From: a virus
DNA: 18,217 bases
UHGV virus genome: UHGV-0816550
Strand: one strand, 5' to 3'
Shown: positions 448 through 18,035 of the stretch, in pieces
Layout: the number at the start of each line of letters is the position of its first letter
Numbering within the stretch: the first letter of the stretch is position 1
Position numbers and translations under genes: made by a program
Notes under the pieces: model-generated
Databases searched by the model: none
Told to the model about the DNA's origin: nothing
What the model saw: the letters and a program-made list of their open reading frames with translations, nothing else

Positions 448-3400
448 ATGATCGTTTATAATAGCCAAGCACCTGATGCAGTGAATGATGTTGGGCAGTT
501 TGGTGCTAAGGAAGGCTCTATCGGAGCTTACAAGCAAGCAGCAGAATATGCAGCTGACTCCAAATATTGGGCACTGCTAGCGGAGTCTAAGTTTGGTACA
601 ATTGATGACTTGATCACTGAAGTAGAACGTCTGTATCAACAAGGTGTTTTAATGAAGCAAGATATCGAAGATCTTAAACAGGACTTTAAAGATCAAGATG
701 CTCGTTTGATGACACTTATTGCTCAGACTAACGCAGCAGTGTCGGATGCTAATAATGCCGTTGCTTTAATCAATCAGAAACTTATTGAGGTTCAGAAACA
801 GCTTGATGTTCTGTTGGGAATGTCTGTTGACGTAACTACACTTCCTCCGGGAACTCCGGCTACTGGCTCTTTTAATCCGAACACTGGTGTAATCTCTTTA
901 GGTATTCCAGAAGGTGATCCCGGAAAGGATGGTTCTGTTAAAGATTTGGATACAGCACCTACTGGTGTTCCAGAGCTAGGTGATTTAGGTTTCTATGTTG
1001 ACAAAGATGACAATACTGTCCACAAGACTACTCTAGAGAATATTGCTAACTTAATTCCATCTGTTCGTTCTGTGTCTGTTAACGGTGGAACACCTGCTGA
1101 TGGAGAAGTTAATCTGGTCCTAGACAAAACTACTGTAGGTCTTAATAACGTAGTTAACGTAGCCTCTTATAGTATCTCTCAAGTTGACGGTAAAGTGGAT
1201 GGGTATGTTAAAACCTACAGAACCAAAGCTGCTGCGGATGCTGATGTAGTTAACCGAAAGGTTGGCGAAAACATCCTAGTTTGGGAGGATTATAAATACG
1301 TCTTCTACACTGTAGCTGCCGATAAAACACTAACTCTTTCTAAAACAGAAAATAGGATTGTTACGGTAAACTCTCGAGTTCCGGATTCTACTGGTAATAT
1401 TGATATTACGATACCTACCGGTAACCCGTCTTTGTATTTGGGTGAGATGTTAATGTTCCCTTATGACCCAGCCAAACAGGTGTCATATCCGGGTGTTCTT
1501 CCAGCTGATGGTCGTCTGGTGTCTAAAGATAACGCTGCTGATTTAGGCCCATCTCTTGTCAGTGGTCAACTTCCTGTTGTTTCTGAAACTGCGTGGCAAG
1601 CTGGAGCTAAACAGTATTTCTCTTGGGGCAAGTTAGCTGATGGGGTTACTGATGCGGATTCAACAAACTTTATCAATATTCGACTTCCCGATTGGACAGG
1701 TGGTGAGGCAATTAGATCTCCAAGTAAAACAAGTGACACTCAGTATGATGGAAGACCTCTTTCTCAGGTTCCTTATGTTGTTGCTGTTAACGGTAAGATC
1801 CCTAATGAAGCAACAGGTAATGTTACAGTCACAGCATCAGATGTAGGTGCCCTTCCTACTACTGGTGGTAAGATGACAGGCCATCTAAATCTCAGCTCTG
1901 GGATTGTGTTAACAGGTACCGCGAGTTCTGGAACATCCATTAATATCGCAACTGTTGCAACTGATGGTTCCGTTCTTCTCGGTAGTGATACAGTTAAAGC
2001 TAAAGTCCTATCTTCTGATGTCCCTGTTTATGCAAGCGCTTCGGGAGAGAAGAAGTTTTACACTGAGGCTAACAAACCAACTCCTGCTGAAATAGGGGCT
2101 GCTGCTATCACCTCTGCTGGGGTTAACGGGGATATCACTAAGCTTGAAGGTTTGGTTGGCCCTACTCGACTGGGTGGAGATGCTGTAGGTGATCTAGATG
2201 CTGTTACCTTACGTCAGTTAAGAAACCAAGGGGGTGGCGGTGGTGGGGCTAGCTTGAACGGTGTCTCTAATTTCAATATTGGTGATTTCCGTTTAGTAGA
2301 CAGTCGTGCTCTTATTCACTCTAATGACGTAACTTCTGACGGTCAATTATTATCTCGTACGGCATACCCAGATCTGTGGGCTTATGCTCAAGCGTTGTCT
2401 CCTATCACAGATGCTGCTTGGCTGGCTGACCCCCAACAAAGAGGTAAATACTCTTTAGGTGATGGTTCTACTACATTCCGTGTCCCTGACCGAAATGGTG
2501 TCCAAAGCGGCTCTATCACAGGGTTGTTTGGTAGGGGTGACTCTGGTAATTCTTCTAACAGTGGTTCAGTTTCTGATGCTTCTCTGCCAAACATCACAGC
2601 TAGCTTCTCTTCAGACTTAAACGGAAAAGCTTGGTTTCCTTTCACTACAGCTGACGGGTCTATGCTTGTCTCAACATCCGGTAGTGGAACTTTTATGCCA
2701 ACTGCTGGATATGAAACTGGGACCCAAGGAAATATACTTAGGTTCGATGCATCTAGACAATCCTCAGTTTATGGTCGATATAGTAACACCCAGAACGTAA
2801 TACCTAAAAGTTTTACTGGCGTTTGGGTAATCAGGGCTACTGGTGGATTCACTGCTGCTAATACAGAGTGGTCTGTTATTAACTCCGATGCAACCAAACC
2901 TTCTACTGGGTTTACAGTGTCTGGTGGTTTAGTCCGCTCTGAGTATAAAATAGGGACCGACCTAACTTACTCAGCAACCTTGTCTGCTTATGGGCAAATT
3001 GATGGAGCCTCCGGAACATCTGGAGCTAAAATCTTAAACGGGTCTCAGGAGTGGAAATTCAACAATGCTGGAACATTAGTTCTTCCTAATGCGGTATCTC
3101 AGCTTGGTACAGAAAGACCTGATGGAGCTATCAATGTTGATGCATACCTAAGACCTAAAGATTTGGTAGCCAACTCACTGAACTCTGTCGGTGTTGCGGC
3201 TTACGAGCGAAACGGTATGAGGATGATTAACTTCAATCAAACCACTCCTGGATATGTTTCTTACTTCTCTGGGGATTGGTATGATGGCAGTTACACTCTT
3301 GGTGGCGTTCGTGGTACTGGTACAGACCTGATTCATGCTCAGATTGCGGTAAACAACGGTCAAGGTGTAGCAGCTGATTTTAAGTTCATGCCGGACGGAA

Positions 3401-3762
3401 CTGCTCAAGCAGGGAACTGGTCAAGCACTTCAGACGAAAGACTTAAAACTAACATCAAGCGTATTGAGAATCCTATTGAAAAACTTAAGGCTATCAAAGG
3501 TGTTACTTGGGAACGTCTTGATAAACTTCCTAAACCTAATGGTATTGGCTTCCTTGCGCAAGATGTGGAGAAGGTTTTCCCTGACGCTGTTAAGGCTCTC
3601 CAGTATTCAGACACTGAATTGAAAGATGGAACTATTGTGAAAGATGTTAAGTCTGTAGACACCTATGGGGTAGCTGCTGCACTGCATCACGAAGTCCTAT
3701 TAGTTTTGTTAGATAGAATAGAAGCTCTTGAGAAAGAAGTAAATGAATTAAGGGCACGGTAA
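448..3762 (+). CDS. Tail fibre / tailspike protein 1 (1104 aa) with tail-collar module and C-terminal intramolecular chaperone domain
   Basis: ATG 448 preceded by AAGGAG (437-442). Predicted coiled-coil N-terminus; poly-Gly hinge (QGGGGGGAS); collar-like motif AYPDLWAYAQAL...GDGSTTFRVPDRNG at about 2362-2500; C-terminal S-DERLKTNIKRIENPIEKLKAIKGVTWERLD...LHHEV typical of peptidase S74 self-cleaving chaperone domains. Confidence 0.9.
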   Translation: MIVYNSQAPDAVNDVGQFGAKEGSIGAYKQAAEYAADSKYWALLAESKFGTIDDLITEVERLYQQGVLMKQDIEDLKQDFKDQDARLMTLIAQTNAAVSDANNAVALINQKLIEVQKQLDVLLGMSVDVTTLPPGTPATGSFNPNTGVISLGIPEGDPGKDGSVKDLDTAPTGVPELGDLGFYVDKDDNTVHKTTLENIANLIPSVRSVSVNGGTPADGEVNLVLDKTTVGLNNVVNVASYSISQVDGKVDGYVKTYRTKAAADADVVNRKVGENILVWEDYKYVFYTVAADKTLTLSKTENRIVTVNSRVPDSTGNIDITIPTGNPSLYLGEMLMFPYDPAKQVSYPGVLPADGRLVSKDNAADLGPSLVSGQLPVVSETAWQAGAKQYFSWGKLADGVTDADSTNFINIRLPDWTGGEAIRSPSKTSDTQYDGRPLSQVPYVVAVNGKIPNEATGNVTVTASDVGALPTTGGKMTGHLNLSSGIVLTGTASSGTSINIATVATDGSVLLGSDTVKAKVLSSDVPVYASASGEKKFYTEANKPTPAEIGAAAITSAGVNGDITKLEGLVGPTRLGGDAVGDLDAVTLRQLRNQGGGGGGASLNGVSNFNIGDFRLVDSRALIHSNDVTSDGQLLSRTAYPDLWAYAQALSPITDAAWLADPQQRGKYSLGDGSTTFRVPDRNGVQSGSITGLFGRGDSGNSSNSGSVSDASLPNITASFSSDLNGKAWFPFTTADGSMLVSTSGSGTFMPTAGYETGTQGNILRFDASRQSSVYGRYSNTQNVIPKSFTGVWVIRATGGFTAANTEWSVINSDATKPSTGFTVSGGLVRSEYKIGTDLTYSATLSAYGQIDGASGTSGAKILNGSQEWKFNNAGTLVLPNAVSQLGTERPDGAINVDAYLRPKDLVANSLNSVGVAAYERNGMRMINFNQTTPGYVSYFSGDWYDGSYTLGGVRGTGTDLIHAQIAVNNGQGVAADFKFMPDGTAQAGNWSSTSDERLKTNIKRIENPIEKLKAIKGVTWERLDKLPKPNGIGFLAQDVEKVFPDAVKALQYSDTELKDGTIVKDVKSVDTYGVAAALHHEVLLVLLDRIEALEKEVNELRAR
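3430..3759 (+). other. Intramolecular chaperone (peptidase S74-like) domain of fibre 1, with predicted autocleavage near the Ser-Asp at 3430-3435
   Basis: Motif SDERLKTNI...GVTWERL...GIGFLAQDVEKVFPDAV...LHHEVLLVLLDRIEALEKEVNELR matches the conserved endosialidase/tailspike C-terminal chaperone signature ending in a coiled coil. Confidence 0.7.
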
Positions 3763-3772
3763 TATAAATAAT

Positions 3773-3791
3773 GCTCCCTTCGGGGAGCTTT
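3773..3791 (+). terminator. Stem-loop GCTCCC-TTCG-GGGAGC followed by TTT; candidate terminator or RNA processing/stability hairpin
   Basis: Perfect 6-bp GC-rich inverted repeat with a UUCG tetraloop 11 nt after the fibre 1 stop; only a short U-tract; the AAGGAG site of the next gene follows at 3792. Confidence 0.5.
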
Positions 3792-3803: not shown

Positions 3804-5900
3804 ATGTCTAGAGATTTAATGCCCAAATCTGGCATACTTCAACCATATGTTGTTGTTTCCAGAGATGCAGCTGTTGTTGGCGTTTCCACTGTAGATGGTG
3901 TTGCTGGAGCTGTAAATTTAACTGATAAATACTTGCAGAAAACAGAAGCGGCTGATGTATATCAAACTAAAACAGAAGGTGCATCTAAAGATTATGTATT
4001 AGATTCAATTAAACCTATCATGGAAGGTGCTTTGTTCAAAGCAGACCCTTTTGTAGATAATAACATCCCTTTCCGTTCTGCTGGGGCTAATGGTGTAGAG
4101 TCTGTGGATATGATGAAAGTCACCACTGATAACTCAATTAAGATTGGTAGTTATGCTTCCTCAGTTCAAGGTGTAGAAATTCACTCTGCTGGTCGTCTTC
4201 AGGTTGTTGACCAGAATGACTCTGGGGTAGAAACTAAGTACCCTGTTTATTCTAAACGATACCGCCCTGAGATTGAAGATTTACCTTTCGCTGCAATCGG
4301 AACTTATGTTAAAGATTCAAAAGGTCGTACTGTTGGTGTTACCCGTACAGGTATTAACTCTGATATCAAACAGCTTACACAGAAGGTTACTTTCACTCAG
4401 CCAGTAACTGTTGCCGATGCAGTTGGTGACTATGATGCTGTCACACTAAGACAACTCCGTAATAGTAGTGGTGGTTCTGGTGGTCCTACAATGAGCGGTA
4501 TTTCTAACTTTGGTATTGGTGATTTCAGACTAGTAGACAGCCGTGCTTTTATCCAATCAAATGATGTTACCTCAGATGGTCAGCTGTTAAATCGTGCTGA
4601 TTACCCAGAGCTTTGGGCTTACGCACAACTATTGACCCCAATTAGTGATGCAGATTGGCTGGCTGACCCCCAACAAAGAGGTAAATACTCTTTAGGTGAT
4701 GGTTCTACTACTTTCCGCGTTCCTGATAGAAATGGCGTTCAAACCGGTTCTATCTCTGGTCTGTATGCTCGCGGTGACGGTGGTAACAGCTCCAACGACG
4801 GTACTGTTCAGCAGAACGCCGCGCCTGATATTACAGGCTCCGTTGGTGCGAACATATGGAGCGTATATGGAGATCCTACGGGGGCGATGTTTGCGGCTGA
4901 TCCAGCACTTAATATTCCGTTAGGCGCAGGAACCACACCAGCGCTTTCCGTCGGCTTTCGAGCGGGCCTATCAAACGCCGCTTATGGTCGCGACAACACG
5001 ACCGAAGTCCGCACCAACAGCTTCATAGGTGTCTGGGTTATTCGTGCTAATGGTGGCTTTACTGCTGCTAATACTTCTTGGTCTGTTATTAATGGCGACA
5101 GCGTTGCTCCGGGTACTGGAACAAAGATAGTAGGTGGTGAGATTCGTTCTGACTATAATATTGGAGACTCTATGCACATAAGATCCTCTATGCGTGCTGA
5201 TGGTAACTACGGTCAACGTGGAGGTGGTGTATGGAGAATTGAGGACTATCAAGGTAAAAGTGCAGAGATATCTTTCAACCTTGGTGGTGAGTTAGTGGTC
5301 CCAACATACACCAGAGGCGTGGGGTCGGGTTTCATTGCATCTTCTAAATTAGGGTCTGATGGTCAGTGGCCTACAACATCCCCGGCGTTTATTTGTGAGC
5401 TAACAGGCAGAGTGGGTAATCCCGGAACACCGGGTGCTGTTTTCTCCATGTCTATGGCGGAGAACGTGGGTGTTGATAGCTTTGGCATACTTAGATTCTC
5501 AGGAGCAGGGGTGAATGTGGACTGGCTGTTTAACCAGTTTGGTAGTGCCATAGCTCCTGCTAACTGGGTGAGTAATTCGGATATCCGAATTAAAAAGGAT
5601 ATTGCTAAGATAGAAGAACCTCTTGAGAAGATGAAGAAACTACATGGGTACACTTGGCGACGCTTAGACGGGGGCCAGTTTGGTATTGGGTTCATTGCTC
5701 AAGAAGTTCAGGATATCTATCCAGAGTTGGTCTATACAGGCCCAGACAGAACCCTCCCTGATGGAACAGTTGTCAAAGGTGTCCTATCTCCAGATTCTAC
5801 TGGTATTGCGATTGGTCTTCACCACGAAGCTATTCTGGCTTTGATGGAACAAATCGACACCCTTAAAGCAGAGATTGCTGAACTCAAATCTAACAAATGA
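3804..5900 (+). CDS. Tail fibre / tailspike protein 2 (698 aa), paralogue of fibre 1 with collar module and C-terminal intramolecular chaperone domain
   Basis: ATG 3804 with AAGGAG at 3792-3797. Collar-like motif ADYPELWAYAQLL...GDGSTTFRVPDRNG at about 4596-4737, roughly 80% aa-identical to fibre 1 over this module; C-terminal SDIRIKKDIAKIEEPLEKMKKLHGYTWRRLD...LHHEAILALMEQIDTLKAEIAELK. Confidence 0.9.
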   Translation: MSRDLMPKSGILQPYVVVSRDAAVVGVSTVDGVAGAVNLTDKYLQKTEAADVYQTKTEGASKDYVLDSIKPIMEGALFKADPFVDNNIPFRSAGANGVESVDMMKVTTDNSIKIGSYASSVQGVEIHSAGRLQVVDQNDSGVETKYPVYSKRYRPEIEDLPFAAIGTYVKDSKGRTVGVTRTGINSDIKQLTQKVTFTQPVTVADAVGDYDAVTLRQLRNSSGGSGGPTMSGISNFGIGDFRLVDSRAFIQSNDVTSDGQLLNRADYPELWAYAQLLTPISDADWLADPQQRGKYSLGDGSTTFRVPDRNGVQTGSISGLYARGDGGNSSNDGTVQQNAAPDITGSVGANIWSVYGDPTGAMFAADPALNIPLGAGTTPALSVGFRAGLSNAAYGRDNTTEVRTNSFIGVWVIRANGGFTAANTSWSVINGDSVAPGTGTKIVGGEIRSDYNIGDSMHIRSSMRADGNYGQRGGGVWRIEDYQGKSAEISFNLGGELVVPTYTRGVGSGFIASSKLGSDGQWPTTSPAFICELTGRVGNPGTPGAVFSMSMAENVGVDSFGILRFSGAGVNVDWLFNQFGSAIAPANWVSNSDIRIKKDIAKIEEPLEKMKKLHGYTWRRLDGGQFGIGFIAQEVQDIYPELVYTGPDRTLPDGTVVKGVLSPDSTGIAIGLHHEAILALMEQIDTLKAEIAELKSNK
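5577..5897 (+). other. Intramolecular chaperone (peptidase S74-like) domain of fibre 2
   Basis: NSDIRIKKDI...HGYTWRRL...GIGFIAQEVQDIYPELV...GLHHEAIL plus terminal coiled coil; homologous to the fibre 1 C-terminus but divergent (I estimate about 40% identity by eye). Confidence 0.7.
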
Positions 5901-5903
5901 GAT

Positions 5904-5922
5904 AAGCCCCTTCGGGGGCTTT
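5904..5922 (+). terminator. Stem-loop AAGCCCC-TTCG-GGGGCTT; candidate terminator or processing hairpin after fibre 2
   Basis: Perfect 7-bp stem with UUCG tetraloop 4 nt after the TGA stop; same architecture as the hairpin at 3773-3791; weak U-tract. Confidence 0.45.
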
Positions 5923-5992
5923 AGTAGTAAGTACCCTTAGTAAGTAATGAAACTAATATATCCCAAGAGGTTAATATATAGGAGACACTCAA

Positions 5993-6211
5993 ATGAAAAT
6001 GATGAAACAGGCTGCATATGGTTTAATCTGTTTAGTTGCAGGCGTTGTGGTATCAACCGCAGTTCCTGTAAGCGCAGTTCATCCATTAGTAACTGTCCCT
6101 GCTCCAGTAGAGAAGCTTAGCTCTCAATGCAAGCAGAGAACAATTCAAAATAACTTAGTTGTTATTTGCCCCGATGCTGAATCTAACGCTCTGAGAAAGA
6201 TACTACCTTAA
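5993..6211 (+). CDS. Small membrane protein (72 aa), putative holin or lysis accessory protein
   Basis: ATG 5993 with AGGAG at 5980-5984. One N-terminal hydrophobic segment (AAYGLICLVAGVVVSTAV), a proline-rich stretch and a charged C-terminal tail; sits immediately upstream of a lysozyme that has no signal or anchor sequence. Confidence 0.5.
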   Translation: MKMMKQAAYGLICLVAGVVVSTAVPVSAVHPLVTVPAPVEKLSSQCKQRTIQNNLVVICPDAESNALRKILP

Positions 6212-6744: not shown

Positions 6745-7548
6745 TTGGCTATCGAAACTAATGCGGTAGTTATTACCGACTTAAACCCGCTCTATCCTAG
6801 AGACAGGGATTACATCTACGAAGGGGCGGCTCAAATCCGCCTCATTAAACAAACGTTACAGAACACATTCCCCAATGTTACAGAACCGGTTGATATAGAT
6901 TCTGATACCTTTAAGATTATGTCAGAGAAGCTTAAGTTTACTGGTGATGCAATGGATGTTGGTGGTCTTATGATCAAGAATGTTACTCCGGGAACTGGTG
7001 ACAAGGATGTTGTTACTAAAGGCCAGATGGAAGCGTTCATGAAGAACTGGATGGAGAATAAGCTCTATCGAATTGGTTCTTACTATATCACTGAAGAAGA
7101 CATTAACCCAGGTGATTCAATCTCCTTAGGGTTTGGTTCTTGGGCTAAAGTGACTGGTGTCATTATGGGTACTGGTGTAGTAAACCCTGATGGAACTGTT
7201 CCTAATGCTCAGAGAGTTGAGTTCCAAGCAGGTGGTACTGGTGGTCGTGTCTTCAATACTATTCGAACTGAGAACGTACCTTTGATGACAGTTAATGGCT
7301 CCAGCTTCTCTCTATCCAGTAATACTCACAGTCACAATATGGTGTTTGGTCGTGGGGATGCTAGTGGTCATAACAGCTCACCAAACTGGTATAGTCCGGG
7401 TGGTGGTTATAGTCAGAGAACTGATAATGACACACATACTCATACAATCTCTGGTAGTGTAAGTCTTGGTCGTGATGATATCTCTCGTCAACCTATTAAC
7501 ACTTTGCCACCATTCAGAGCAGCTCACATTTGGAGACGTATTAGCTAA
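6745..7548 (+). CDS. Short tail fibre-like / receptor-binding tail protein (267 aa) with two HxH motifs
   Basis: TTG start at 6745 with GGAGG at 6734-6738; no in-frame ATG nearby. C-terminal region NTHSHNMVFGRGDASGHNSS...DTHTHTISG has HxH motifs and an FGRGD-x-G-x-NSS motif also present in both fibres, recalling the T4 gp12 type collar and metal-binding tip region. Confidence 0.7.
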   Translation: MAIETNAVVITDLNPLYPRDRDYIYEGAAQIRLIKQTLQNTFPNVTEPVDIDSDTFKIMSEKLKFTGDAMDVGGLMIKNVTPGTGDKDVVTKGQMEAFMKNWMENKLYRIGSYYITEEDINPGDSISLGFGSWAKVTGVIMGTGVVNPDGTVPNAQRVEFQAGGTGGRVFNTIRTENVPLMTVNGSSFSLSSNTHSHNMVFGRGDASGHNSSPNWYSPGGGYSQRTDNDTHTHTISGSVSLGRDDISRQPINTLPPFRAAHIWRRIS

Positions 7549-7557
7549 GGAGGAATT

Positions 7558-10500
7558 ATGGCGCTGTATCCAATAAAGTCACTAGGTGCTGTAGGCGTTA
7601 TCGCTGATCAGGCTCCGACAGACTTAGCTCCTAATGCTTTCACTAATGCTATAAATGCTCGATTTGTTGAGCAGAGAGTATTTAAGACGGGGGGCAATGC
7701 CCCTCTTTCTTATGTAGATGAAGATAAGGATTTAACCCCTCTGTCTTTCGTTTCTATGCCTTTCGATTATTATAGCGCAGGTAATAGCTTTCTTGTTGTA
7801 GGTACTAATAAGAAGTTATATAAACTGACAGATGAAAGCTTGACTGATATTAGCCGTAAGGTTGCTACAGTCACTAAGAAGGCTTCTGCCTCAATTAAGA
7901 TTTATCCAGTTGTTTCTCAGATCGTTCCTAAAGAATCAACTATCTCAATGAACTTCAATCAGACCAAGAATCTAGAGGTTTCTCTTCTCCCTGCTGATGC
8001 TAACAATACCGATCTTATTTGGGAGGTTAGTAACTCATCCTATGGAAGTATTACGGTAGACCCTAGTGACTCTAAACTTGCTACTCTAACATCTTTTGAG
8101 AAAGAGGGTAATCTTGTAGTAACTATCTCTACTGCCAATGAATCCGTAGTGGCTCAGATTGCTGTTAATATTATCGATGGCGATTCAGGCATCTTCTTGA
8201 GTCAAGACACTGTTACAATTCGTAAAGGAGGGACTACTACTCTCACGGCTGTTACTGGCAAGACTCCTGTAACTTGGTCCAGCAATAACGCTTCTATTGT
8301 ATCTGTAACCCCTAATGCCAACTCTTTAACTGCTGTCATTACAGCGAATGGAGAAGGTAATGTAACAATCACTGCTGATAACGGGACTAAGACTGCTTCT
8401 TGTGAGATTGTTTCTATCCCTCAGATTGATAGTATCTCTTTAAGCCAGTCAGATGTTACTGTGAGTAGAGGTTCTCAGTATATTTTAACTGCCACCCTTT
8501 CTCCTGCTAACGCCCCTAATCAAAACATTACTTGGACCTCTTCTAACCCAAATATTGCAACAGTATCAGGGACTAGCACACAAGGGACGATCAACGCTCT
8601 GCTTGCTGGTTTTACTGAGATTACAGCTACCACTGAAGAAGGTAACAGAGTTGCTGTCTGTACTGTACGTGTGGATTTAGCTGGAAGGACAATGAGAACA
8701 AGTGCTATGGCATTTGCCGCTCCTGTGTCAGAGTCAGTAGAAACTCAAGAGGAAGAAGTAGTAACTCCTCCTGAAAGTGAAGAGACGGTTTATTTTGCTG
8801 AGCCTACATCCGGTATTGATACGTCAGGGATGTATGAAGGTAACAACTTCTACGACTACTCTAACGTGAATGACATTGAAGGTTTTGCAAGAGCTTCTTT
8901 ACTGGCAACCCCTTTGTCGTCTGTAACCTTAGATATTGTCAGCGCCTCCCTTGATGTTGGTGAAGAGATTGTCATTACAGCCACAGCTTCTCCAGAAGGT
9001 GAGTACTCTTATCAGTGGTCTGTTGATAAAACTGGTTATGTTTCTACAACTTCAGTTACTGGTAAATCTATCAAACTGGTTGCTCTTCGTAAAGGAGAGA
9101 TTAACGTAACATGTACTGTCAGCCAGATGACTCAGAAAGATTATGATGCTTTTGATGACTACCCTTGGTATCACGCTGTTATCTCTAACTGTGCAGTTGC
9201 TACAACTCACTATGAAACTCCTCAGGTAAAAGAATTCGAATCAGAATACTTTGTAGACCTCCCGGGGTGGGGTGAGCAAACAGTTGTTGATAATGATGGA
9301 AACCCTTCAGTCAAGAAGTTTAACTGGAAATGTGAGAGAGTGAGATCTTTTAACAACCGTCTTTTTGCTCTGAATATGAGAGAGGCTAATGCTTCTGGTG
9401 TTACCACTAACTATCCGCTTCGTCTTCGTTGGTCTAACTTTGCCAATGAGAACAAGGCTCCTACACTGTGGGATGACTTTGCCTATGATCGAGTTGTGTC
9501 TTCGGACTTAGCTTCTAACATCGTAGGGCAGACTCAGGCTCTAGAGAATGGGTATGCTGGTTACATCGACTTAGCAGATTCTAATGGTAGCTTGATTGAT
9601 ATCCTACCTCTTAAAGACTACTTGTTTGTTTATACAGAGTTTGAAACGTATATTGGTTCTCCGACTAATAACACATACCAACCTCTGATGTTCAAGAAGC
9701 TCTTTAACGACTCTGGTATCCTTGCTCCCGAGTGTGTGGTTGAAGTAGAAGGCAGTCACTTCGTAGTTACTCAGAACGATGTAATCTTACACAATGGCGC
9801 AACCAAGAAGTCAATTGCATCTAACCGTGTCAAGAACATGCTGATTAACGAGGTGTGTCTGGTTAATCCTCTAGCAACTCGAGTACACTTGCATCAGGAT
9901 AAGAAAGAAGTTTGGGTTCTGTATGTAGGTCCGGGAGAACCAAAAGAAAGCTTCGCTTGCACCAAAGCTGCTGTATGGAATTATGAGTTTGATACCTGGT
10001 CTTTCCGTACTATCCCATATGCTCAGTGTATTGGTCTGGTTGATCCTCCTGTTTTAGAAAGAGGTCCAATCTGGTCTGACTTCCAAGAAATCACTTGGGA
10101 TGATCCGTCTATTAAAGAACTCGTTTGGAGAAAGGATGCAACAAACTTTAGACAGAGGGTTACGATAGTAGGTTCGTTCTTGAGGGGATTCTATCAGGTG
10201 GATGTAGGTGCTCTTGATTATTTCTATGACAGGCTAAACGATGTTGTTATAGAGAAGCCTCTGGAAATGAGGTTGGAGAGGACTGGTATAGATTTTGATA
10301 ATGTGACGAATGAGTGGAATCAGAAGCATATTAATAGATTCCGACCTCAGACAACTGGCTCAGGTACTTACATATTTGAAGCTGGTGGCAGTCAATTCTC
10401 AAATGAATATGGACACCCACATACATCTAAGACTTATACAATCGGTGTTGACAGGCATGTCTCGGTGAGACTGAACCATCCATACCTTTTCTATAATGTT

Positions 10501-10575
10501 ATAGATAATGATGTTAACAGTAATGCTGCTATCAATGGTTTGACGATAGAGTTTGCTGTTGGCGGGCGGAGATAA
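7558..10575 (+). CDS. Large virion structural protein (1005 aa) with four internal Ig-like (Big_2-type) domains
   Basis: ATG 7558 with AAGGAGG at 7547-7553. Four roughly 80-aa repeats between about 7903 and 9120 with the Big_2 pattern (for example TISMNFNQTKNLEVSLLPADANNTDLIWEVSNSSYGSITVD; VTIRKGGTTTLTAVTGKTPVTWSSNNASIVSV; VTVSRGSQYILTATLSPANAPNQNITWTSSNPNIATV). Flanking N- and C-terminal regions not recognised. Confidence 0.8.
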   Translation: MALYPIKSLGAVGVIADQAPTDLAPNAFTNAINARFVEQRVFKTGGNAPLSYVDEDKDLTPLSFVSMPFDYYSAGNSFLVVGTNKKLYKLTDESLTDISRKVATVTKKASASIKIYPVVSQIVPKESTISMNFNQTKNLEVSLLPADANNTDLIWEVSNSSYGSITVDPSDSKLATLTSFEKEGNLVVTISTANESVVAQIAVNIIDGDSGIFLSQDTVTIRKGGTTTLTAVTGKTPVTWSSNNASIVSVTPNANSLTAVITANGEGNVTITADNGTKTASCEIVSIPQIDSISLSQSDVTVSRGSQYILTATLSPANAPNQNITWTSSNPNIATVSGTSTQGTINALLAGFTEITATTEEGNRVAVCTVRVDLAGRTMRTSAMAFAAPVSESVETQEEEVVTPPESEETVYFAEPTSGIDTSGMYEGNNFYDYSNVNDIEGFARASLLATPLSSVTLDIVSASLDVGEEIVITATASPEGEYSYQWSVDKTGYVSTTSVTGKSIKLVALRKGEINVTCTVSQMTQKDYDAFDDYPWYHAVISNCAVATTHYETPQVKEFESEYFVDLPGWGEQTVVDNDGNPSVKKFNWKCERVRSFNNRLFALNMREANASGVTTNYPLRLRWSNFANENKAPTLWDDFAYDRVVSSDLASNIVGQTQALENGYAGYIDLADSNGSLIDILPLKDYLFVYTEFETYIGSPTNNTYQPLMFKKLFNDSGILAPECVVEVEGSHFVVTQNDVILHNGATKKSIASNRVKNMLINEVCLVNPLATRVHLHQDKKEVWVLYVGPGEPKESFACTKAAVWNYEFDTWSFRTIPYAQCIGLVDPPVLERGPIWSDFQEITWDDPSIKELVWRKDATNFRQRVTIVGSFLRGFYQVDVGALDYFYDRLNDVVIEKPLEMRLERTGIDFDNVTNEWNQKHINRFRPQTTGSGTYIFEAGGSQFSNEYGHPHTSKTYTIGVDRHVSVRLNHPYLFYNVIDNDVNSNAAINGLTIEFAVGGRR

Positions 10576-10579
10576 CAAC

Positions 10580-10608
10580 AAGGGGCTTCGTGCCCCTTTT
10601 ATTGTTTT
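10580..10608 (+). terminator. Rho-independent terminator-like hairpin AAGGGGC-TTCGT-GCCCCTT followed by a U-rich tract
   Basis: 7-bp GC-rich stem at 10580-10586 / 10592-10598, then TTATTGTTTT; lies 5 nt after the TAA stop at 10573-10575 and before the next gene's GGAGGA site. Confidence 0.6.
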
Positions 10609-10618
10609 GGAGGAACTT

Positions 10619-11587
10619 ATGGGTGCAGGTGGTTTTCGTAAGAATACTGGTCGCAACAATACCACACTCCCGTACAACGTTGGGTTTCTCAATAATGTAC
10701 AGGACACAGAAACATATAACGTAGCCGTATATGATGAGCTACAAAAAGTCAGTACAGCTACTAACCAAATGTTCCAAGCTATAGATGAAATTCACGAAGA
10801 GATTGATGTTCGTATTAAAGCTCTTAATGCAATGAATCTACAATTTGATGAGCTTGAGAATAGAATTACTACAGAGATAGAAACAGCTATTGCAGATATC
10901 CAAACCCAGATGGGGAACCTGTCCACTGAGGATATTTGGGATAATTCTGTTCAACCTCCTGTGAAGCTGGAAAGCACTGTATCTGGTTTTAAGACTAGCA
11001 TCGAAGGTAACACAACTAAGATTCAGACAGTAGAAGGTATTGTTAACGATCAAGGTCAAGAGATTGCTCTTGTTCAGACAGAACTGCAAAATATCAACGG
11101 AAGCCTTTCTCAGTATATGAAACTCTCTGAGTATGAAGCTACGTGGGGTGTTAACTCTACAGTCAACGGAAGATATGCTGGGGTCAAGTTAACTAACAAC
11201 GGAACAAACAGTCAATTCCAAGTAACAGCTAACAAATTTATTGTTGGTGATGGCAGCTCTGGGAATACTCCCTTCGTATTTGAGGGTGGGCGAGCTAGGA
11301 TGGAATTCGCTGATATAAAGAATGTCAATATCACAACAGCTCAGATTGCTAACGCTAGAATCCAATGGGCACAGATTGATAACGTATCCATCTCCAACGC
11401 CCAGATTCAGAACTTGTCAGCGGATAAGATTACTGCTGGTTCTATGTGGGGTTCTAACTGGAGACTTACTGTTGGTGGTGACTTTGTTATGGGTGGTACA
11501 GGTGGAGCGCAGTTGTGGATGAATGGTAACAGAATAGACTTCTATGATGGAAGTGGTGCTCTTAGAATCAGGATAGGGAGTTGGTAA
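10619..11587 (+). CDS. Tail protein (322 aa) with coiled-coil region and J-like beta-repeat C-terminal domain
   Basis: ATG 10619 with GGAGGA at 10609-10614; the ORF-track start at 10553 is a TTG inside the previous gene and terminator. Heptad-like central region; C-terminal repeats NITTAQIANARIQWAQIDNVSISNAQIQNLSADKITAGS resemble tail tip / host-specificity protein repeats. Confidence 0.75.
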   Translation: MGAGGFRKNTGRNNTTLPYNVGFLNNVQDTETYNVAVYDELQKVSTATNQMFQAIDEIHEEIDVRIKALNAMNLQFDELENRITTEIETAIADIQTQMGNLSTEDIWDNSVQPPVKLESTVSGFKTSIEGNTTKIQTVEGIVNDQGQEIALVQTELQNINGSLSQYMKLSEYEATWGVNSTVNGRYAGVKLTNNGTNSQFQVTANKFIVGDGSSGNTPFVFEGGRARMEFADIKNVNITTAQIANARIQWAQIDNVSISNAQIQNLSADKITAGSMWGSNWRLTVGGDFVMGGTGGAQLWMNGNRIDFYDGSGALRIRIGSW

Positions 11588-13434: not shown

Positions 13435-14487
13435 ATGTCTTTATTTGGAAAATCAGCTTCTAGCAAAACCACAGTGGCCCCTTCCTCTCAGGTTGATGCC
13501 CTGCTGAAGCAGATTGTTGCTAATGCTCAGAATATGCAGAACAACGATCCGGGATTCATCTCCCAACAGCTGGCTGGGTTTAATGGCAACCAACAAGGTG
13601 CTCTGAACAACTTAGCAGCTTCTACTACTCAGAAGCAATTGGCTGATATGTACACGCCTCGTACACAGCAAGGGTTGGACCAATTAAACTCTCTTGCACA
13701 GCAGTATCAGAATATTGTCAATGGTGGTGGTCTAACTGCTGATGGTGTTAATAACTTCAGTAAAGGATTGAATAACTCAGCTCTTGCTCAAGCGACTAGT
13801 AAGGCAGCTTCCAATGTATCCCTCGGAAATGGTTCTGACTCTGGTTCTCTTCGTAGGGCTGCGGCTCAAGGGGCTGCTTTGAACAGTGCTAATACAAACT
13901 TAGCCCGTACTATCAGTGGCAAGAATATGGGAATCAGTGCTCTCCAACAAGACCAAAACTTTCAGAGGGGTTTACTTGGTGCTCAGTCAGGATTGGCTGG
14001 ACAGAATCTCAACCTTGGTGCTCAAGGTGTTCAGGCAACTCAACAAGCTATCCAGAATCAACTCATGGCTGGTAATCTACAACAGCAACAAGCCCAAGCT
14101 CAAGCTGATATTAATTGGCAGAACGCTATTGGCTCTCAACAGTATGGGTGGAATCAGCTTAACAATCAGCTTAATGTATTAAACAGTGTAAGTCCAATGG
14201 CTGGGTACACGATTAAGAATGCTGCTCCGGGAGTCAATACTGGACAACAGCTCCTAGGTGCTGGTATCACTGGTTTAGGTATTGCAGGTCGTATGGGTGC
14301 TTTCTCTCCTAACCAACAGACTCAGAATGCTTGGAGTTCCTATAACAACTCAGGTGGGCAATCTGGAATGGCTGGACCTATGATTGGAGGTTCTAATCTT
14401 TCTCAACAGAGAGGTCAGTCTAACTGGTTATCCACAGCAGGTAGTAATATCTTAGGTGGTGTCTTAGGGGCATTTGGAGTAAACTAA
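13435..14487 (+). CDS. Q/N/G-rich low-complexity virion protein (350 aa) with C-terminal glycine-zipper segment; putative ejection/internal protein
   Basis: ATG 13435 with AAGGAGG at 13425-13431. Strongly biased composition (poly-Q, N, G, A, S) and a C-terminal small-residue hydrophobic segment (GSNILGGVLGAFGV). Confidence 0.75.
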   Translation: MSLFGKSASSKTTVAPSSQVDALLKQIVANAQNMQNNDPGFISQQLAGFNGNQQGALNNLAASTTQKQLADMYTPRTQQGLDQLNSLAQQYQNIVNGGGLTADGVNNFSKGLNNSALAQATSKAASNVSLGNGSDSGSLRRAAAQGAALNSANTNLARTISGKNMGISALQQDQNFQRGLLGAQSGLAGQNLNLGAQGVQATQQAIQNQLMAGNLQQQQAQAQADINWQNAIGSQQYGWNQLNNQLNVLNSVSPMAGYTIKNAAPGVNTGQQLLGAGITGLGIAGRMGAFSPNQQTQNAWSSYNNSGGQSGMAGPMIGGSNLSQQRGQSNWLSTAGSNILGGVLGAFGVN

Positions 14488-14499
14488 AGGAGATTTGAT

Positions 14500-15469
14500 A
14501 TGGGACTTTTCGGAGGAGGGGGTAGTAAAACTACTTCCCAAATGATTCGCCCTGAATATATTCAACAGTATATTGACCAGCTTAACCAGCAGATTGGTAA
14601 TACTAGTTCTAGGGGATTATGTCTATCGTGACAACGTAGGATTTAATAACAACCAGACAGAAGCCCTTAATAATTTGGCTCAATCCGGTGCTTTAGGGAC
14701 TCTCTCGCAGCAATATATGGATGCAGCAGGTCAAGGGTTGGGTTATCTGGATAATGCCTATAAAGGCTACCAGAGCCTCTCTGGACAAGGTGGGATTACT
14801 GGAGAACAGATTGGTGCTCTCGCTGGTCAACTGTATGACGATGATGCTGTGCAAGCAGCCATTACCGCTAATAATGAACAGGTTCAACAGAACTTGGCAC
14901 GTAATGCTCTTCCTCAATTAGCTCAACAGTTTGCTGGTCAGCAAGGTTCAGGTGCTCGTATGGCTAAATCTTTTGCCCAAGGTGATGCTCTGAATCAGAT
15001 GCAAGGCCAAGCAACAGATATTACCAACAGTGCCTATAACTCGGCTATTAGCCAAGCTGAAAGCATCCTCTCTGGTAATAGACAGAATCAAGCAGCTGCT
15101 CTCTCAGGTCTTTCTAATATTGGTTCTAACCTTTCTAACCTAGGTCAGCAGGGTGCTAATTTGTCTCAACAGCAAATAATGAATCAATGGAATGCAGGAT
15201 TGCAGCAACAACAGCAACAACAGAATGAATATGATAATGCCTACCAGAATGCTCAGAACGCAGCTAATTGGGGATGGCAAGATATCAATAACCAACTCGG
15301 TGCAGCAGGTGTACTTAACGGTGCTCTCGGACAAACTACAACTACTAAAACATCTGGAGGTAGGGGTGGCTTCTTAGGAGGGGGTATGAGTGGTGCAGCA
15401 GCAGGCTCTTCCTTTGGACCTTGGGGTGCATTAGCTGGGGGTGTAATCGGTGGGTTGGCTAGTACTTAA
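14500..15469 (+). CDS. Q/N/G-rich paralogue of the preceding protein, interrupted by an apparent +1 frame change near the G4 run at 14612-14615 (sequencing indel, pseudogene or recoding)
   Basis: ATG 14500 with AAGGAG at 14487-14492 opens a frame that stops at TGA 14629-14631 after 43 codons. The long downstream frame (open from 14546 to 15469) has no ATG start with a ribosome-binding site. Both parts align to the upstream paralogue (MSLFGKSASSKTT vs MGLFGGGGSKTT; GFNGNQQGALNNL vs GFNNNQTEALNNL) only if one base is removed. Confidence 0.6.
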
Positions 15470-15482
15470 TTAGGAGACAAAT

Positions 15483-16274
15483 ATGCAACAGACAACTTAC
15501 GCTCAGGTCAGAAGTCGTGACCCGAGAAATACTTTCTATGGTGTTAATCCGGGAGCGGCTTCGGCCTCTCCTTATATGGCTAGACCAACTCAGACAGCAG
15601 ATATTTCTATGTATCAACGTCCTGCTATACCTGCTGGGCTTTCCTCTCTTGTAGGTCAAACTTCAGTAGATTATCAGAATATGTTGAATCCTGTTCAGAG
15701 TAATGGTCTTCCTTCTGATATCCCAAATGATGTACAACCTCAAGCACAACAGGCTGTAACTCTTCCTGAGTTTGAGAATCAAGAAACCATGCAAGCTGCT
15801 GGACTTTCTCCTTCTTCTATTCCTCCAGAATCAGAACCTCTTCCGGTAACACCTCCTACTAAACCGTTAGAAGCTGGTCCTATGGAGTTTACTCCTTCTC
15901 AGGTGGAACAGGCACAAGGTGTGATTAATACTCTTGCTCAAGGACAAGACGCTGGTGATGGAATGACTGCTGCTACTCGTGCTAAAGATCAGGAACGTGT
16001 TAACAACGATATCTTGCAAGTTGCTAAAGCTAAAAATCCTTCAGAAGCTTGGAATAAACTACAGAAAGAACCTTTCTATCAGAACTCCAGTTTCTATACA
16101 GGTTTAATGGGTGTAGGTCTTTCTATCATGTCAGGTAAGTCTCCTATTGAAGCTTTCCAGATTGGTCAGGGAATGGCTAATCAAGATGAGACTAAGAAGC
16201 AACTGGAAGCTAACCGTGATGCTCTGATTGAACAAGGCTTCTCCCAAGACTCGATCGCAGCTGCTATTGCTTAA
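15483..16274 (+). CDS. Hypothetical virion/ejection-associated protein (263 aa) with Pro-rich linker and C-terminal hydrophobic segment
   Basis: ATG 15483 with AGGAG at 15473-15477. Pro/Ser-rich linker (SPSSIPPESEPLPVTPPTKPLEAGP) and hydrophobic FYTGLMGVGLSIMSG near the C-terminus; no family motif recognised. Confidence 0.65.
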   Translation: MQQTTYAQVRSRDPRNTFYGVNPGAASASPYMARPTQTADISMYQRPAIPAGLSSLVGQTSVDYQNMLNPVQSNGLPSDIPNDVQPQAQQAVTLPEFENQETMQAAGLSPSSIPPESEPLPVTPPTKPLEAGPMEFTPSQVEQAQGVINTLAQGQDAGDGMTAATRAKDQERVNNDILQVAKAKNPSEAWNKLQKEPFYQNSSFYTGLMGVGLSIMSGKSPIEAFQIGQGMANQDETKKQLEANRDALIEQGFSQDSIAAAIA

Positions 16275-17967
16275 CACGTTGAGAGCGAGCACGCTGAGAA
16301 GAGAAGCGATTCAGAGCATACTTAGCAGCACCGAGAGTGTTCATTACCAGACTAGGTGAAGAAGCCTCACGGAATCCATCATCAGTCAGGGAAGTCCAAC
16401 CACGATCTTGGTTACTCATAAACTTAGCCGTATTGTTCAGAGTGTAAGCATCTTGGATAGGATTAAAACCTTCAGGCATGCCTTTCAGTTTCTTCAACCC
16501 ACCGATAGCTTTCTTCATCTCTGGAGAAACGTTATCAGCCATCTTCTGTAGTTCAGCAGCTTTCTCTACGAAGTTGTTAAAGTCTTCACCATCACGAGCT
16601 TTGAATCGATTTGCTTCGTTATAGAAAGTCTTGTACGCATCAATGAAATCACGGTCAGCTTGTGTGCGATTCTTAATATCAATCGGACTGCCAGTAAAGT
16701 CACCAGAAGCTCGGAGAGAAACTAACTCACGATCAAGATTATCCAGAACATCTGTAAGAGCTTTAGTGTTATCCTTGGTGTAGTCAGCCATTGCATCTTT
16801 CATAGCGACAGCTTGCTTCTGGTTGTGCTCATTATCAGCGAAGGCTTTACCACGAGTCTTAGCCGGAGAAGCTAAAGGGTTAAGGCCCGGAATGTTGGAA
16901 TGTTCTTTCTGAACAGAAGCAGCTTTCTCAGCACGAGCTTGGTCAGTATTAAGAATACGCTGAGCAGCAGGAGAATCTACAGCAACAGCATCTGTGATAC
17001 GGAATCCGTTCTCGTCGAGAAGGTTCAGAGCAGAAGCAGCGTTAGCAGTTTCAGCTTTAGAGTAAGCCTCTTTCAGCTCATCAATATTCTTAGCACCACG
17101 AATCAGTTCATCATCAGCAGCAATATCAGTCTTCGCATATTCTGGAGTGTTCTTGAAGACAGCAGAATCCGGACGGCTAATCAAACCATGAACTCCACCA
17201 ACTGCACCACCAAATGCAGCACCCATAGCCCCTTCTTCAATAACCCCTTCCAATGTCTTAGCTAAATCATTGTCATCACCATACTTGTTCTGAACTTCAG
17301 CAGCACCAACAAGAGCACCACCTTTAGCACCAGCCACTGCGTTACTAGCAACGTTCTGACCAATACGACCAAGTGTGGACTCAGCTGTACCAACAGCACC
17401 CGGAAGGATTCTCTGAGCTGCATAGTTAGCACCACCAACTAAGGCTGCATCTAGAACAGACTTATCTTCTCCCTCTTCAGGGGTTTGGTCTGCATACGCA
17501 CGACCGGTCTCACGACCTGCGATGATAGCAGCGGCAGCTAATGGGTTAGCAACTGTCAGACCAATGTCGGCAACCACCCCAGCATACTGACCAGCAGACT
17601 TACCAATCCCATCCTCAATCTTATCCATACGTTCTTTCAAGAGGTTTTGAGCGTTCTCTTGCATACGCTTCCCGTAACCAGTTTGTGCTCCAGTTAGATC
17701 TTCACCAATCTCAACTAAGCCCCCAATACCTCTAGCAAGATTAGCAGAGATGTTAGCACTGCCGGACTGAAGAGCATTTGACACACCTTGAGCAAACTCA
17801 CCTATAGCACCACGTTCTTCTTGTTGTGGTTGTGCTACTGGCTGTTCCTCAGGAATAGAGCCACCTGCTGCCTTATATTGTTCTCTCATTCGAGCTTGTT
17901 GCTCCGGAGAGGCATTCAGATACGCAGGAGCTTTGGAAGCTTCTTCCCACGGTTTAATGTTAGCCAT
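16264..17967 (-). CDS. Hypothetical Gly/Ala-rich protein (567 aa), function unknown
   Basis: Minus-strand ATG at 17965-17967 preceded by AAGGAG; product begins MANIKPWEEAS. The ORF-track start at 18012 has no ribosome-binding site. Stop TAG at 16264-16266 overlaps the 3' end of the + strand gene ending at 16274. Confidence 0.75.
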   Translation of the reverse strand: MANIKPWEEASKAPAYLNASPEQQARMREQYKAAGGSIPEEQPVAQPQQEERGAIGEFAQGVSNALQSGSANISANLARGIGGLVEIGEDLTGAQTGYGKRMQENAQNLLKERMDKIEDGIGKSAGQYAGVVADIGLTVANPLAAAAIIAGRETGRAYADQTPEEGEDKSVLDAALVGGANYAAQRILPGAVGTAESTLGRIGQNVASNAVAGAKGGALVGAAEVQNKYGDDNDLAKTLEGVIEEGAMGAAFGGAVGGVHGLISRPDSAVFKNTPEYAKTDIAADDELIRGAKNIDELKEAYSKAETANAASALNLLDENGFRITDAVAVDSPAAQRILNTDQARAEKAASVQKEHSNIPGLNPLASPAKTRGKAFADNEHNQKQAVAMKDAMADYTKDNTKALTDVLDNLDRELVSLRASGDFTGSPIDIKNRTQADRDFIDAYKTFYNEANRFKARDGEDFNNFVEKAAELQKMADNVSPEMKKAIGGLKKLKGMPEGFNPIQDAYTLNNTAKFMSNQDRGWTSLTDDGFREASSPSLVMNTLGAAKYALNRFSSQRARSQRVKQ

Positions 17968-18035
17968 AACGTCTCCTTTTATAAATAAAAATGTCCTACC
18001 CCCTATATACATTATAGAAGGCAGGACTTAGGTCT

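What the first reader, a model, noticed from the sequence alone, without database searches (positions are those of the whole stretch)
3430..3759. Both fibres carry C-terminal self-cleaving chaperone domains
Both C-termini match the intramolecular chaperone signature (S-D-x-R-x-K ... GYTWxRLD ... GIGFxAQ(D/E)V ... LHHE). By analogy to endosialidases and related tailspikes, these domains would assist trimer folding and then be removed by autoproteolysis at the conserved Ser, leaving mature fibres roughly 110 residues shorter than the ORFs.
Basis: established knowledge. Interest (0 to 1): 0.45.

Follow-up and report, generated by a model that had tools for sequence, protein, structure and literature searches.

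The report
Self-cleaving chaperone ends on phage fibres
Both proteins of this coliphage's branched long tail fibre end in the well-known self-removing "intramolecular chaperone" domain (peptidase S74), which is an ordinary, already described feature of phage fibres rather than a discovery.

Summary
The window is the structural module of a Kuravirus-like (phiEco32/SU10-type) E. coli podophage. ORF A (448-3762, 1104 aa) and ORF B (3804-5900, 698 aa) each end in a Pfam PF13884 Peptidase_S74 domain, at 54.4 and 53.8 bits against a cut-off of 22. Both have the Ser/Lys(+5) dyad: SDERLK from Ser995 and SDIRIK from Ser592. Both have a long C-terminal helix. Both predicted folds match only solved intramolecular-chaperone structures (MyRF ICA, endosialidase K1F, T5 pb1).

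Autoproteolysis was not tested here and is inferred. The inference is strong, because the ORF B orthologue, EP335 gp13 (56% identical), was shown by mass spectrometry to lose its 11.8 kDa C-terminal domain at the same serine. The predicted losses here are 110 aa (12.4 kDa) for A and 107 aa (11.9 kDa) for B.

Two corrections apply. A and B are the proximal and distal subunits of one branched long tail fibre, not two independent fibres. The true short tail fibre (6745-7548) has no such domain.

Carrying the domain on both subunits is a minority arrangement, seen in 2 of 15 related loci examined. It has precedents in Kuravirus LAMP and the T5-like phages DT57C and DT571/2. Novelty is low.

The parts
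448..3762 (+). ORF A, 1104 aa: proximal subunit of the long tail fibre. Its N-terminal part resembles SU10 gp12 and phiEco32 gp14. [quoted passage not shown]
   Evidence: Residues 1-499 match SU10 'putative tail fiber' PDB 7z47 at E 6e-251, and residues 236-884 match DT57C LtfA PDB 8hqz at E 1e-123. PHROG 10305 and 6921, both tail fibre families. 91% identical to the proximal fibre of Kuravirus pEC-N1203-2Af.1.
3430..3759 (+). IMC / peptidase S74 domain of ORF A (Ser995-Arg1104, 110 aa, 12.4 kDa). This is the stretch given in the finding.
   Evidence: PF13884 at 54.4 bits, E 1.6e-14. Profile hits to PDB IMC domains. AF2 model with mean pLDDT 73 matches only 7dc3 and 3gw6. 100% identical to the C-terminal domain of the pEC-N1203-2Af.1 fibre.
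3430..3447 (+). Predicted catalytic motif SDERLK of ORF A: Ser995 (3430-3432) and Lys1000 (3445-3447). The scissile bond is Thr994-Ser995 or Ser995-Asp996.
   Evidence: Sequence. Ser is conserved in 155/160 and Lys in 160/160 homologues. T5 S1264/K1269 and EP335 S621 are the characterised equivalents.
3661..3756 (+). Long C-terminal helix of the ORF A IMC (about residues 1072-1103), predicted to form the trimeric coiled-coil core of the chaperone.
   Evidence: AF2 helix at residues 108-139 of the 140-aa query, with pLDDT 80-92. In T5 pb1 the chaperone has a central trimeric coiled coil.
3804..5900 (+). ORF B, 698 aa: distal (branch) subunit of the long tail fibre, equivalent to phiEco32 gp15, SU10 gp13, EP335 gp13 and DT57C LtfB. 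It has a C-terminal IMC.
   Evidence: PHROG 6921 at E 3e-251. 56% identical over its full length to EP335 gp13. 41% identical to ORF A residues 497-1103.
5577..5897 (+). IMC / peptidase S74 domain of ORF B (Ser592-Lys698, 107 aa, 11.9 kDa). The motif SDIRIK lies at 5577-5594 (Ser592, Lys597), and the C-terminal helix at about 5796-5891.
   Evidence: PF13884 at 53.8 bits, E 2.3e-14. AF2 model with mean pLDDT 75.5 matches only 7dc3, 3gw6 and 4uw8. 46% identical to the ORF A C-terminal domain.

Best explanation
ORF A and ORF B are the proximal and distal subunits of a branched long tail fibre of a phiEco32/SU10-type podophage (Gordonclarkvirinae). [quoted passage not shown]

By analogy with characterised members, three copies of the domain associate through the long C-terminal helix. 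They nucleate and register folding of the intertwined trimeric receptor-binding tip that lies just upstream. Once the tip is correctly folded, the conserved Ser (A Ser995, B Ser592) is activated by the Lys five residues downstream (A Lys1000, B Lys597) and cuts the chain at that serine. The roughly 12 kDa chaperone is released and the receptor-binding tip is unmasked. Mature proteins would be about 994 aa (104 kDa) for A and about 591 aa (62 kDa) for B.

Shown here: domain membership by sequence profile, the catalytic dyad, the predicted fold, and the position at the extreme C-terminus of the fibre proteins. Inferred from relatives: the chaperone function, the cleavage and the unmasking.
For: Pfam PF13884 scores more than 30 bits above the cut-off in both proteins. 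A profile built from the two domains and their homologues hits the solved IMC domains of S16 gp37 (6f45, E 3e-16), MyRF (7dc3, 2e-11), a phage tail fibre (8jov, 1e-10), GA-1 gp12 (3gud, 4e-6) and DT57C LtfA (8hqz, 4e-3). AF2 models of both domains retrieve only IMC structures from the PDB: 7dc3 at E 1e-5 to 1e-6 with TM 0.54-0.64, 3gw6 with probability 0.97-0.99, and 4uw8. Every other hit has E above 0.8.

The Ser and Lys(+5) are present in both proteins. Across homologues Ser is found in 155/160 (the remaining 5 have Cys) and Lys in 160/160. The dyad is also kept in all 14 IMC domains detected across the 14 related Gordonclarkvirinae loci surveyed.

Experimental precedent in the same phage subfamily: EP335 gp13, 56% identical to ORF B, loses 11.8 kDa by LC-ESI-MS at Ser621, and that serine is position 1 of its Pfam S74 match. 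T5 pb1: the S1264A mutation blocks cleavage, Lys1269 activates the Ser, and the uncleaved protein fails to compete for the receptor. For DT57C LtfA and LtfB the same domain was noted on both subunits of a branched fibre homologous to phiEco32 gp14 and gp15. There is no room for a separate chaperone gene between ORF B and the holin gene (5900 to 5993).
Against: No experiment on these two proteins exists and none can be done here, so cleavage rests on homology. The upstream 'folding sensor' residues described for T5 (Arg1250 and Asp1239 of a neighbouring chain) could not be located by position in either protein, because the tip domains are too divergent to align. The AF2 models are monomers of a domain that functions as an intertwined trimer, and their confidence is only moderate (pLDDT 73-75). 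The literature disagrees on whether the cut falls before the serine (T5) or after it (EP335).
Confidence: 0.87

Rival explanations
1. The S74-like domains are present but are not removed in one or both proteins. They would stay on the mature fibre as a permanent C-terminal trimerisation cap, or as a mask over the receptor site.
For: Cleavage was not measured here. The T5-type Arg/Asp sensor residues could not be identified. In phi29 and T5 the literature is not fully consistent about the fate of the serine.
Against: Both proteins keep the Ser and the Lys(+5), which are 97-100% conserved. The closest characterised relative, EP335 gp13, does cleave. Uncleaved T5 pb1 cannot engage its receptor, so retention would probably disable the fibre.
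Confidence: 0.07
2. The domain's main role here is something other than folding the tip. For example, it could time or order the docking of ORF B onto ORF A during assembly of the branched fibre, with cleavage acting as a checkpoint.
For: Both subunits of a single branched fibre carry the domain, which is uncommon in this subfamily (2 of 15 loci). Nothing in the data excludes an additional assembly role.
Against: The presence of the IMC tracks with the type of distal tip module, not with the branch architecture. Relatives with the same branch junction carry the domain on one subunit only, or on neither. The domain travels with the receptor-binding tip between unrelated phage families.
Confidence: 0.04
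3. The motif resemblance is coincidental and the C-termini are not homologous to S74 domains.
For: None found.
Against: Pfam E-values near 1e-14, PDB profile hits, fold hits restricted to IMC structures, and 13,176 representative homologues at E <= 1e-3.
Confidence: 0.01

Closest known systems
EP335 gp13, tail fibre of a Gordonclarkvirinae (Nieuwekanaalvirus) phage (Witte et al. 2021, PMC8217332)
   Same: It is the orthologue of ORF B: 56% identical over its full length, with the same N-terminal docking region, collar/gp12-like domain and C-terminal PF13884 domain. Autoproteolysis at the conserved Ser was shown by LC-ESI-MS, with a loss of 11.8 kDa.
   Different: The distal tip and C-terminal domain are only about 50% identical. 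In EP335 only the distal subunit has the IMC, while its proximal gp12 ends in PF25670 Phage_tail_C_2.
[quoted passage not shown] 2016, PMC4728585; PDB 8hqz)
   Same: A two-protein branched fibre in which both subunits end in pfam13884. ORF A residues 236-884 are homologous to LtfA at E 1e-123. The branch junction is homologous to phiEco32 gp14 and gp15.
   Different: These are siphovirus fibres, attached through a T5-type N-terminus and the LtfC collar. The LtfA motif is SGIEYK rather than SDxRxK.
Escherichia phage LAMP gp14 and gp15 (Kuravirus, MG673519)
   Same: The only other Gordonclarkvirinae locus among the 14 examined in which both long-tail-fibre subunits carry an IMC-type C-terminal domain.
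   Different: Its domains are divergent, with motifs SDANVK and SGINFK and much lower scores against the profile built here.
T5 pb1 L-shaped tail fibre with IMC (Garcia-Doval et al. 2015, PMC4690869; PDB 4uw8)
   Same: A C-terminal IMC with a Ser/Lys(+5) dyad, a central coiled coil and a hairpin 'tentacle'. The ORF B model hits 4uw8. It provides the mechanistic model for cleavage and unmasking.
   Different: A single unbranched fibre protein with a 133-aa chaperone and low sequence identity (12% in the structural alignment).
Endosialidase K1F C-terminal intramolecular chaperone domain (PDB 3gw6), the founding member of peptidase family S74
   Same: Same Pfam family and fold: both models hit it with probability 0.97-0.99. 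Same Ser-Lys autoproteolysis logic (from the literature cited).
   Different: It caps a tailspike with a triple beta-helix stalk and sialidase domain, not a fibre tip. Identity is 13-16%.
MyRF ICA domain (PDB 7dc3), the eukaryotic homologue
   Same: It is the best structural match for both models, with TM 0.54-0.64, and a profile hit at E 2e-11.
   Different: A eukaryotic membrane-bound transcription factor, where cleavage releases a transcription factor rather than maturing a virion fibre.

Membership tests
Peptidase S74 / C-terminal intramolecular chaperone domain (Pfam PF13884) | Significant match to the family profile above the curated threshold | tested here: met
   ORF A scores 54.4 bits and ORF B 53.8 bits against a cut-off of 22. 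A custom profile hits solved IMC domains.
Peptidase S74 / C-terminal intramolecular chaperone domain (Pfam PF13884) | Conserved nucleophile Ser with a Lys five residues downstream (catalytic dyad) | tested here: met
   A has Ser995 and Lys1000 (SDERLK). B has Ser592 and Lys597 (SDIRIK). In homologues Ser is found in 155/160 and Lys in 160/160.
Peptidase S74 / C-terminal intramolecular chaperone domain (Pfam PF13884) | Located at the extreme C-terminus of a trimeric phage fibre or spike protein, directly after the distal tip | tested here: met
   The domains occupy the last 110 and 107 residues of two proteins identified as tail fibre subunits.
Peptidase S74 / C-terminal intramolecular chaperone domain (Pfam PF13884) | IMC fold: a small alpha/beta unit, a hairpin, and a long C-terminal helix that forms a trimeric coiled coil | tested here: met
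   AF2 monomer models (pLDDT 73 and 75.5) show a terminal helix of about 32 residues. Foldseek against the PDB returns only 7dc3, 3gw6 and 4uw8 as significant. Trimer formation itself was not modelled.
Peptidase S74 / C-terminal intramolecular chaperone domain (Pfam PF13884) | Autoproteolytic release of the domain after folding, abolished by a Ser-to-Ala mutation | not testable with these tools
   Shown for the orthologue EP335 gp13 and for T5 pb1, but not for these proteins.
Peptidase S74 / C-terminal intramolecular chaperone domain (Pfam PF13884) | Folding-sensor residues from a neighbouring chain of the mature part (T5 Arg1250 and Asp1239) that complete the active site | tested here: inconclusive
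   No Arg or Asp at equivalent spacing could be assigned in the divergent upstream tip sequences. This needs a trimer model or a solved structure.
Branched long tail fibre of Gordonclarkvirinae (phiEco32 gp14/gp15, SU10 gp12/gp13) | Proximal subunit with an SU10 gp12-type N-terminus, followed by a distal subunit with the conserved MSR(D/E)LMPKSGI N-terminus, in the structural module after the adaptor gene | tested here: met
   ORF A residues 1-499 match PDB 7z47 at E 6e-251. The ORF B N-terminus is conserved in the relatives. The SU10_adaptor Pfam domain lies upstream at 37-435, and the short fibre, nozzle and needle genes lie downstream.

The most novel reading that the evidence does not exclude
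The fibre of this phage is a doubly tipped branch. ORF A has acquired a full distal-type module (collar-like receptor-binding domain, T5-like tip and IMC), so each of the six fibres would mature two independently folded tips, each self-processed. The two IMCs could then be cleaved at different times, or one could be retained, to stage the exposure of two receptor specificities. That would be a regulatory use of the chaperone rather than mere folding help.
Probability: 0.06. Interest if true: 0.45.

Novelty: new member of a known kind. Interest (0 to 1): 0.14.

Why it matters
The value is practical rather than conceptual. The annotation predicts the true mature sizes of the two receptor-binding proteins (about 104 and 62 kDa). 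It also says where to end expression constructs: the IMC should be included so the protein folds, and loss of about 12 kDa should then be expected. It further marks the boundaries of the exchangeable tip-plus-chaperone cassette, which matters for host-range engineering. Finally, it documents that the tip-plus-IMC cassette moves between podophages and T5-like siphophages. It does not open a new question.

Tried and rejected
1. The search for homologous proteins with the ORF A C-terminal domain returned only 21 mostly short proteins. These sufficed as an AF2 alignment but not for a survey. The exhaustive representative search was used for conservation counts instead.

2. The search for related loci in viral contigs with the ORF B N-terminus gave only 4 loci. 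I added 8 annotated phage loci by hand.

3. I tried to find the T5 Arg1250/Asp1239 'folding sensor' equivalents by spacing upstream of the Ser. No convincing candidates emerged, so this is left inconclusive.

4. The SU10 structure paper contains nothing on fibre cleavage or chaperones. The DT57C cryo-EM paper resolves only the LtfA N-terminus.

5. I checked whether any other tail protein in the window has the domain. The short tail fibre (Gp10_C), the nozzle (Big_2) and the needle (Phage_Tail_Tip) do not.

6. The 69-aa ORFs that follow the IMC-less distal fibres of pEC-N1203-2Af.1 and Bas93 were tested as possible separate chaperones. They have no PHROG match, so this remains only a hint.

7. 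The idea that the motifs are a chance resemblance is rejected.

Full report
**What the window is**

The 18.2 kb window is the virion structural module of a phiEco32/SU10-type E. coli podophage (subfamily Gordonclarkvirinae, genus Kuravirus or a close relative).
- The fibre region matches Kuravirus pEC-N1203-2Af.1 at 92.9% DNA identity over 76% of its length. About 85 other Escherichia, Shigella and Salmonella phage records of the same group match at lower identity.
- The gene order is: C-terminal part of the adaptor (37-438, Pfam SU10_adaptor); ORF A (448-3762, 1104 aa); ORF B (3804-5900, 698 aa); holin; endolysin; short tail fibre (6745-7548, Gp10_C); nozzle protein (7558-10575); tail needle; and ejection or internal proteins.

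**Checking the observation**

- The finding's start, 3430, is exactly the codon of Ser995 in ORF A (SDERLK). The end, 3759, is the last sense codon.
- All four quoted motifs are present in both proteins. The one difference is that ORF A has GVTWERLD rather than GYTW.
- The finding's coordinates cover only the ORF A domain. The ORF B domain is at 5577-5897.
- Pfam PF13884 (Peptidase_S74, 'chaperone of endosialidase') matches A residues 995-1049 at 54.4 bits (E 1.6e-14). It matches B residues 592-644 at 53.8 bits (E 2.3e-14). The curated cut-off is 22 bits, so this is not a chance resemblance.

**Further tests of family membership**

- A profile built from the two domains plus 17 database homologues (alignment A1) was searched against all PDB sequences. 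It finds the solved intramolecular chaperone (IMC) domains of these proteins:

| Protein | PDB | E-value |
|---|---|---|
| Salmonella phage S16 gp37 | 6f45 | 3e-16 |
| MyRF | 7dc3 | 2e-11 |
| a phage tail fibre | 8jov | 1e-10 |
| Bacillus phage GA-1 gp12 | 3gud | 4e-6 |
| DT57C LtfA | 8hqz | 4e-3 |

- AlphaFold2 monomer models of the last 140 aa of A and the last 137 aa of B have mean pLDDT 73 and 75.5. Each shows a small alpha/beta unit, a hairpin and a terminal helix of about 32 residues.
- Foldseek against the PDB returns only IMC structures as significant. These are MyRF ICA 7dc3 (E 1e-5 to 1e-6, TM 0.54-0.64) and endosialidase K1F IMC 3gw6 (probability 0.97-0.99). For B, T5 pb1 with its chaperone (4uw8) also appears. 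The next hits have E above 0.8.
- An exhaustive search of 1.84 billion representative proteins found 13,176 homologues at E <= 1e-3.
- In the alignment of the closest representatives, the position of Ser995 is Ser in 155 of 160 and Cys in the other 5. Asp996 is conserved at 97%, Arg998 at 92% and Lys1000 at 100%.
- The two window domains are 46% identical to each other.

**How it most likely works**

The mechanism is taken from characterised relatives, not shown here.
- In T5 pb1 the 133-residue C-terminal domain forms a trimer with a central coiled coil and three hairpin 'tentacles' that lie in grooves of the receptor-binding tip.
- In T5, Ser1264 is activated by Lys1269 and the chain is cut once the trimer is correctly folded. 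The S1264A mutation blocks cleavage, and the uncleaved protein cannot compete for the receptor (PMC4690869).
- Within the same phage subfamily as the window, EP335 gp13 was shown by LC-ESI-MS to lose 11.8 kDa at Ser621 (PMC8217332).
- EP335 gp13 is 56% identical to ORF B over its whole length. Ser621 is position 1 of its Pfam S74 match, which is the exact equivalent of Ser592 in B and Ser995 in A.
- My mass calculation for EP335 (11,838 Da for residues 622-729, against 11,925 Da for 621-729) fits the published 11.8 kDa better with a cut after the serine. The T5 paper places the cut before the serine, so the scissile bond is uncertain by one residue.
- Predicted products are as follows:

| Protein | Full length | Mature protein | Released domain |
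|---|---|---|---|
| ORF A | 116.5 kDa | about 104.1 kDa | 12.4 kDa (110 aa) |
| ORF B | 74.1 kDa | about 62.2 kDa | 11.9 kDa (107 aa) |

- A and B are not two independent fibres. The ORF A N-terminus (1-499) is the SU10 gp12 'long tail fibre proximal protein' (PDB 7z47, E 6e-251).
- ORF B is the counterpart of SU10 gp13, phiEco32 gp15 and DT57C LtfB, which dock onto the proximal protein to form a branched fibre.
- The phage's real second fibre type, the short tail fibre (6745-7548), has no S74 domain. Neither do the nozzle or the needle.
- ORF A is a composite. After the branch region it carries its own distal-type module that is 41% identical to ORF B over about 650 residues, including the collar-like domain, the tip and the IMC. 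This is the same layout as DT57C LtfA.

**How usual the arrangement is**

I scanned the long-tail-fibre genes of 14 related Gordonclarkvirinae loci with an HMM of the domain. Together with the window this makes 15 loci:

| IMC present on | Loci |
|---|---|
| Distal subunit only | 11 (including phiEco32, NJ01, KBNP1711, EP335, Bas90 and SGF2) |
| Proximal subunit only | 1 (pEC-N1203-2Af.1; Pfam confirmation) |
| Neither subunit | 1 (Bas93) |
| Both subunits | 2 (phage LAMP and the window) |

- All detected domains keep the Ser and Lys(+5), with motif variants SDxRxK, SDENLK, SDANVK and SGINFK.
- The double arrangement is therefore a minority variant. It has precedent inside the subfamily (LAMP) and in the T5-like phages DT57C and DT571/2, where it was described in 2016. 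IMC domains on Gordonclarkvirinae 'T-shaped' fibres are also shown in the 2025 BASEL collection paper.
- The domain travels with the tip. The last 268 residues of ORF B are closest (67%) to a fibre of the T5-like Salmonella phages Kenya-K42 and Kenya-K36, and at most 37% identical to anything else in the phage collection. The ORF A domain is 100% identical to that of pEC-N1203-2Af.1.

**Verdict**

The feature is a new member of a well-known kind and its interest is low. What remains unproven is the cleavage itself and the exact scissile bond in these two proteins. Intact-mass MS and Ser-to-Ala mutants would settle both.

**Outside the finding**

From 16267 to the end of the window, the sequence is the reverse complement of what follows colinearly in every related genome. 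This break truncates two conserved virion-protein genes. It looks like an inversion or an assembly artefact and deserves a separate look.

Noticed in passing
window 16267-18217 (junction at 16267-16275): This stretch is inverted relative to all relatives. Window 14105-16275 aligns colinearly with MN03 (L015 1-2169), but window 16267-18217 aligns to L015 4795->2845 on the opposite strand, with a 9-bp overlap at the junction. None of 99 related records is colinear across the junction. The break truncates the 549-aa virion protein gene (leaving ORF 15483-16274, 263 aa). It also makes the minus-strand ORF 16264-18012 an inverted fragment that starts inside the intergenic spacer and runs into the 1473-aa protein gene. 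This is either a genuine inversion of about 2.6 kb or more, or an assembly artefact.
   Followed up: partly
window 1936-3762 versus 3804-5900: ORF A residues 497-1103 are a paralogue of ORF B residues 100-696 (41% identity over 654 aligned positions). The proximal fibre protein therefore carries a fused copy of a distal-type module (collar-like domain, tip and IMC), as in DT57C LtfA.
   Followed up: partly
window 5094-5897: The distal 268 residues of ORF B (tip plus IMC) are 67% identical to a fibre of the T5-like Salmonella phages Kenya-K42 and Kenya-K36, but at most 37% identical to any other phage record, including all Kuraviruses. The nearest Kuravirus, pEC-N1203-2Af.1, diverges from ORF B after about window 5092. 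This looks like exchange of the tip-plus-chaperone cassette between phage families.
   Followed up: partly
window about 2515-2820 (ORF A residues about 690-790): ORF A is 91% identical to the pEC-N1203-2Af.1 proximal fibre, and the differences are concentrated in one patch of about 100 residues just after the collar-like domain. This is likely a receptor-contact region under diversifying exchange.
   Followed up: no
window 3773-3788 and 5904-5921: Each fibre gene is followed within 15 nt by a GC-rich hairpin with a TTCG (UUCG) tetraloop: GCTCCCTTCGGGGAGC and AAGCCCCTTCGGGGGCTT. The first sits directly before the ORF B ribosome-binding site. These are possibly transcript-stabilising or weak terminator elements.
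   Followed up: no
L001 19233-19442 and L008 7481-7690: In the two relatives whose distal fibre lacks an IMC (625 aa; pEC-N1203-2Af.1 and Bas93), a 69-aa ORF follows the fibre gene immediately. That ORF is absent from the window. It could be a separate fibre chaperone replacing the fused one, but it has no PHROG match.
   Followed up: partly
homologues of the domain (alignment): Five of 160 close representative homologues have Cys instead of the nucleophile Ser at the position of Ser995, with the Lys(+5) retained. These may be Cys-nucleophile variants of the S74 domain.
   Followed up: no
window 10553-11587: The listed ORF for the tail needle starts at a TTG that overlaps the nozzle gene. The PHROG match begins at residue 23, so the real start is probably an internal codon about 66 nt downstream.
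   Followed up: no
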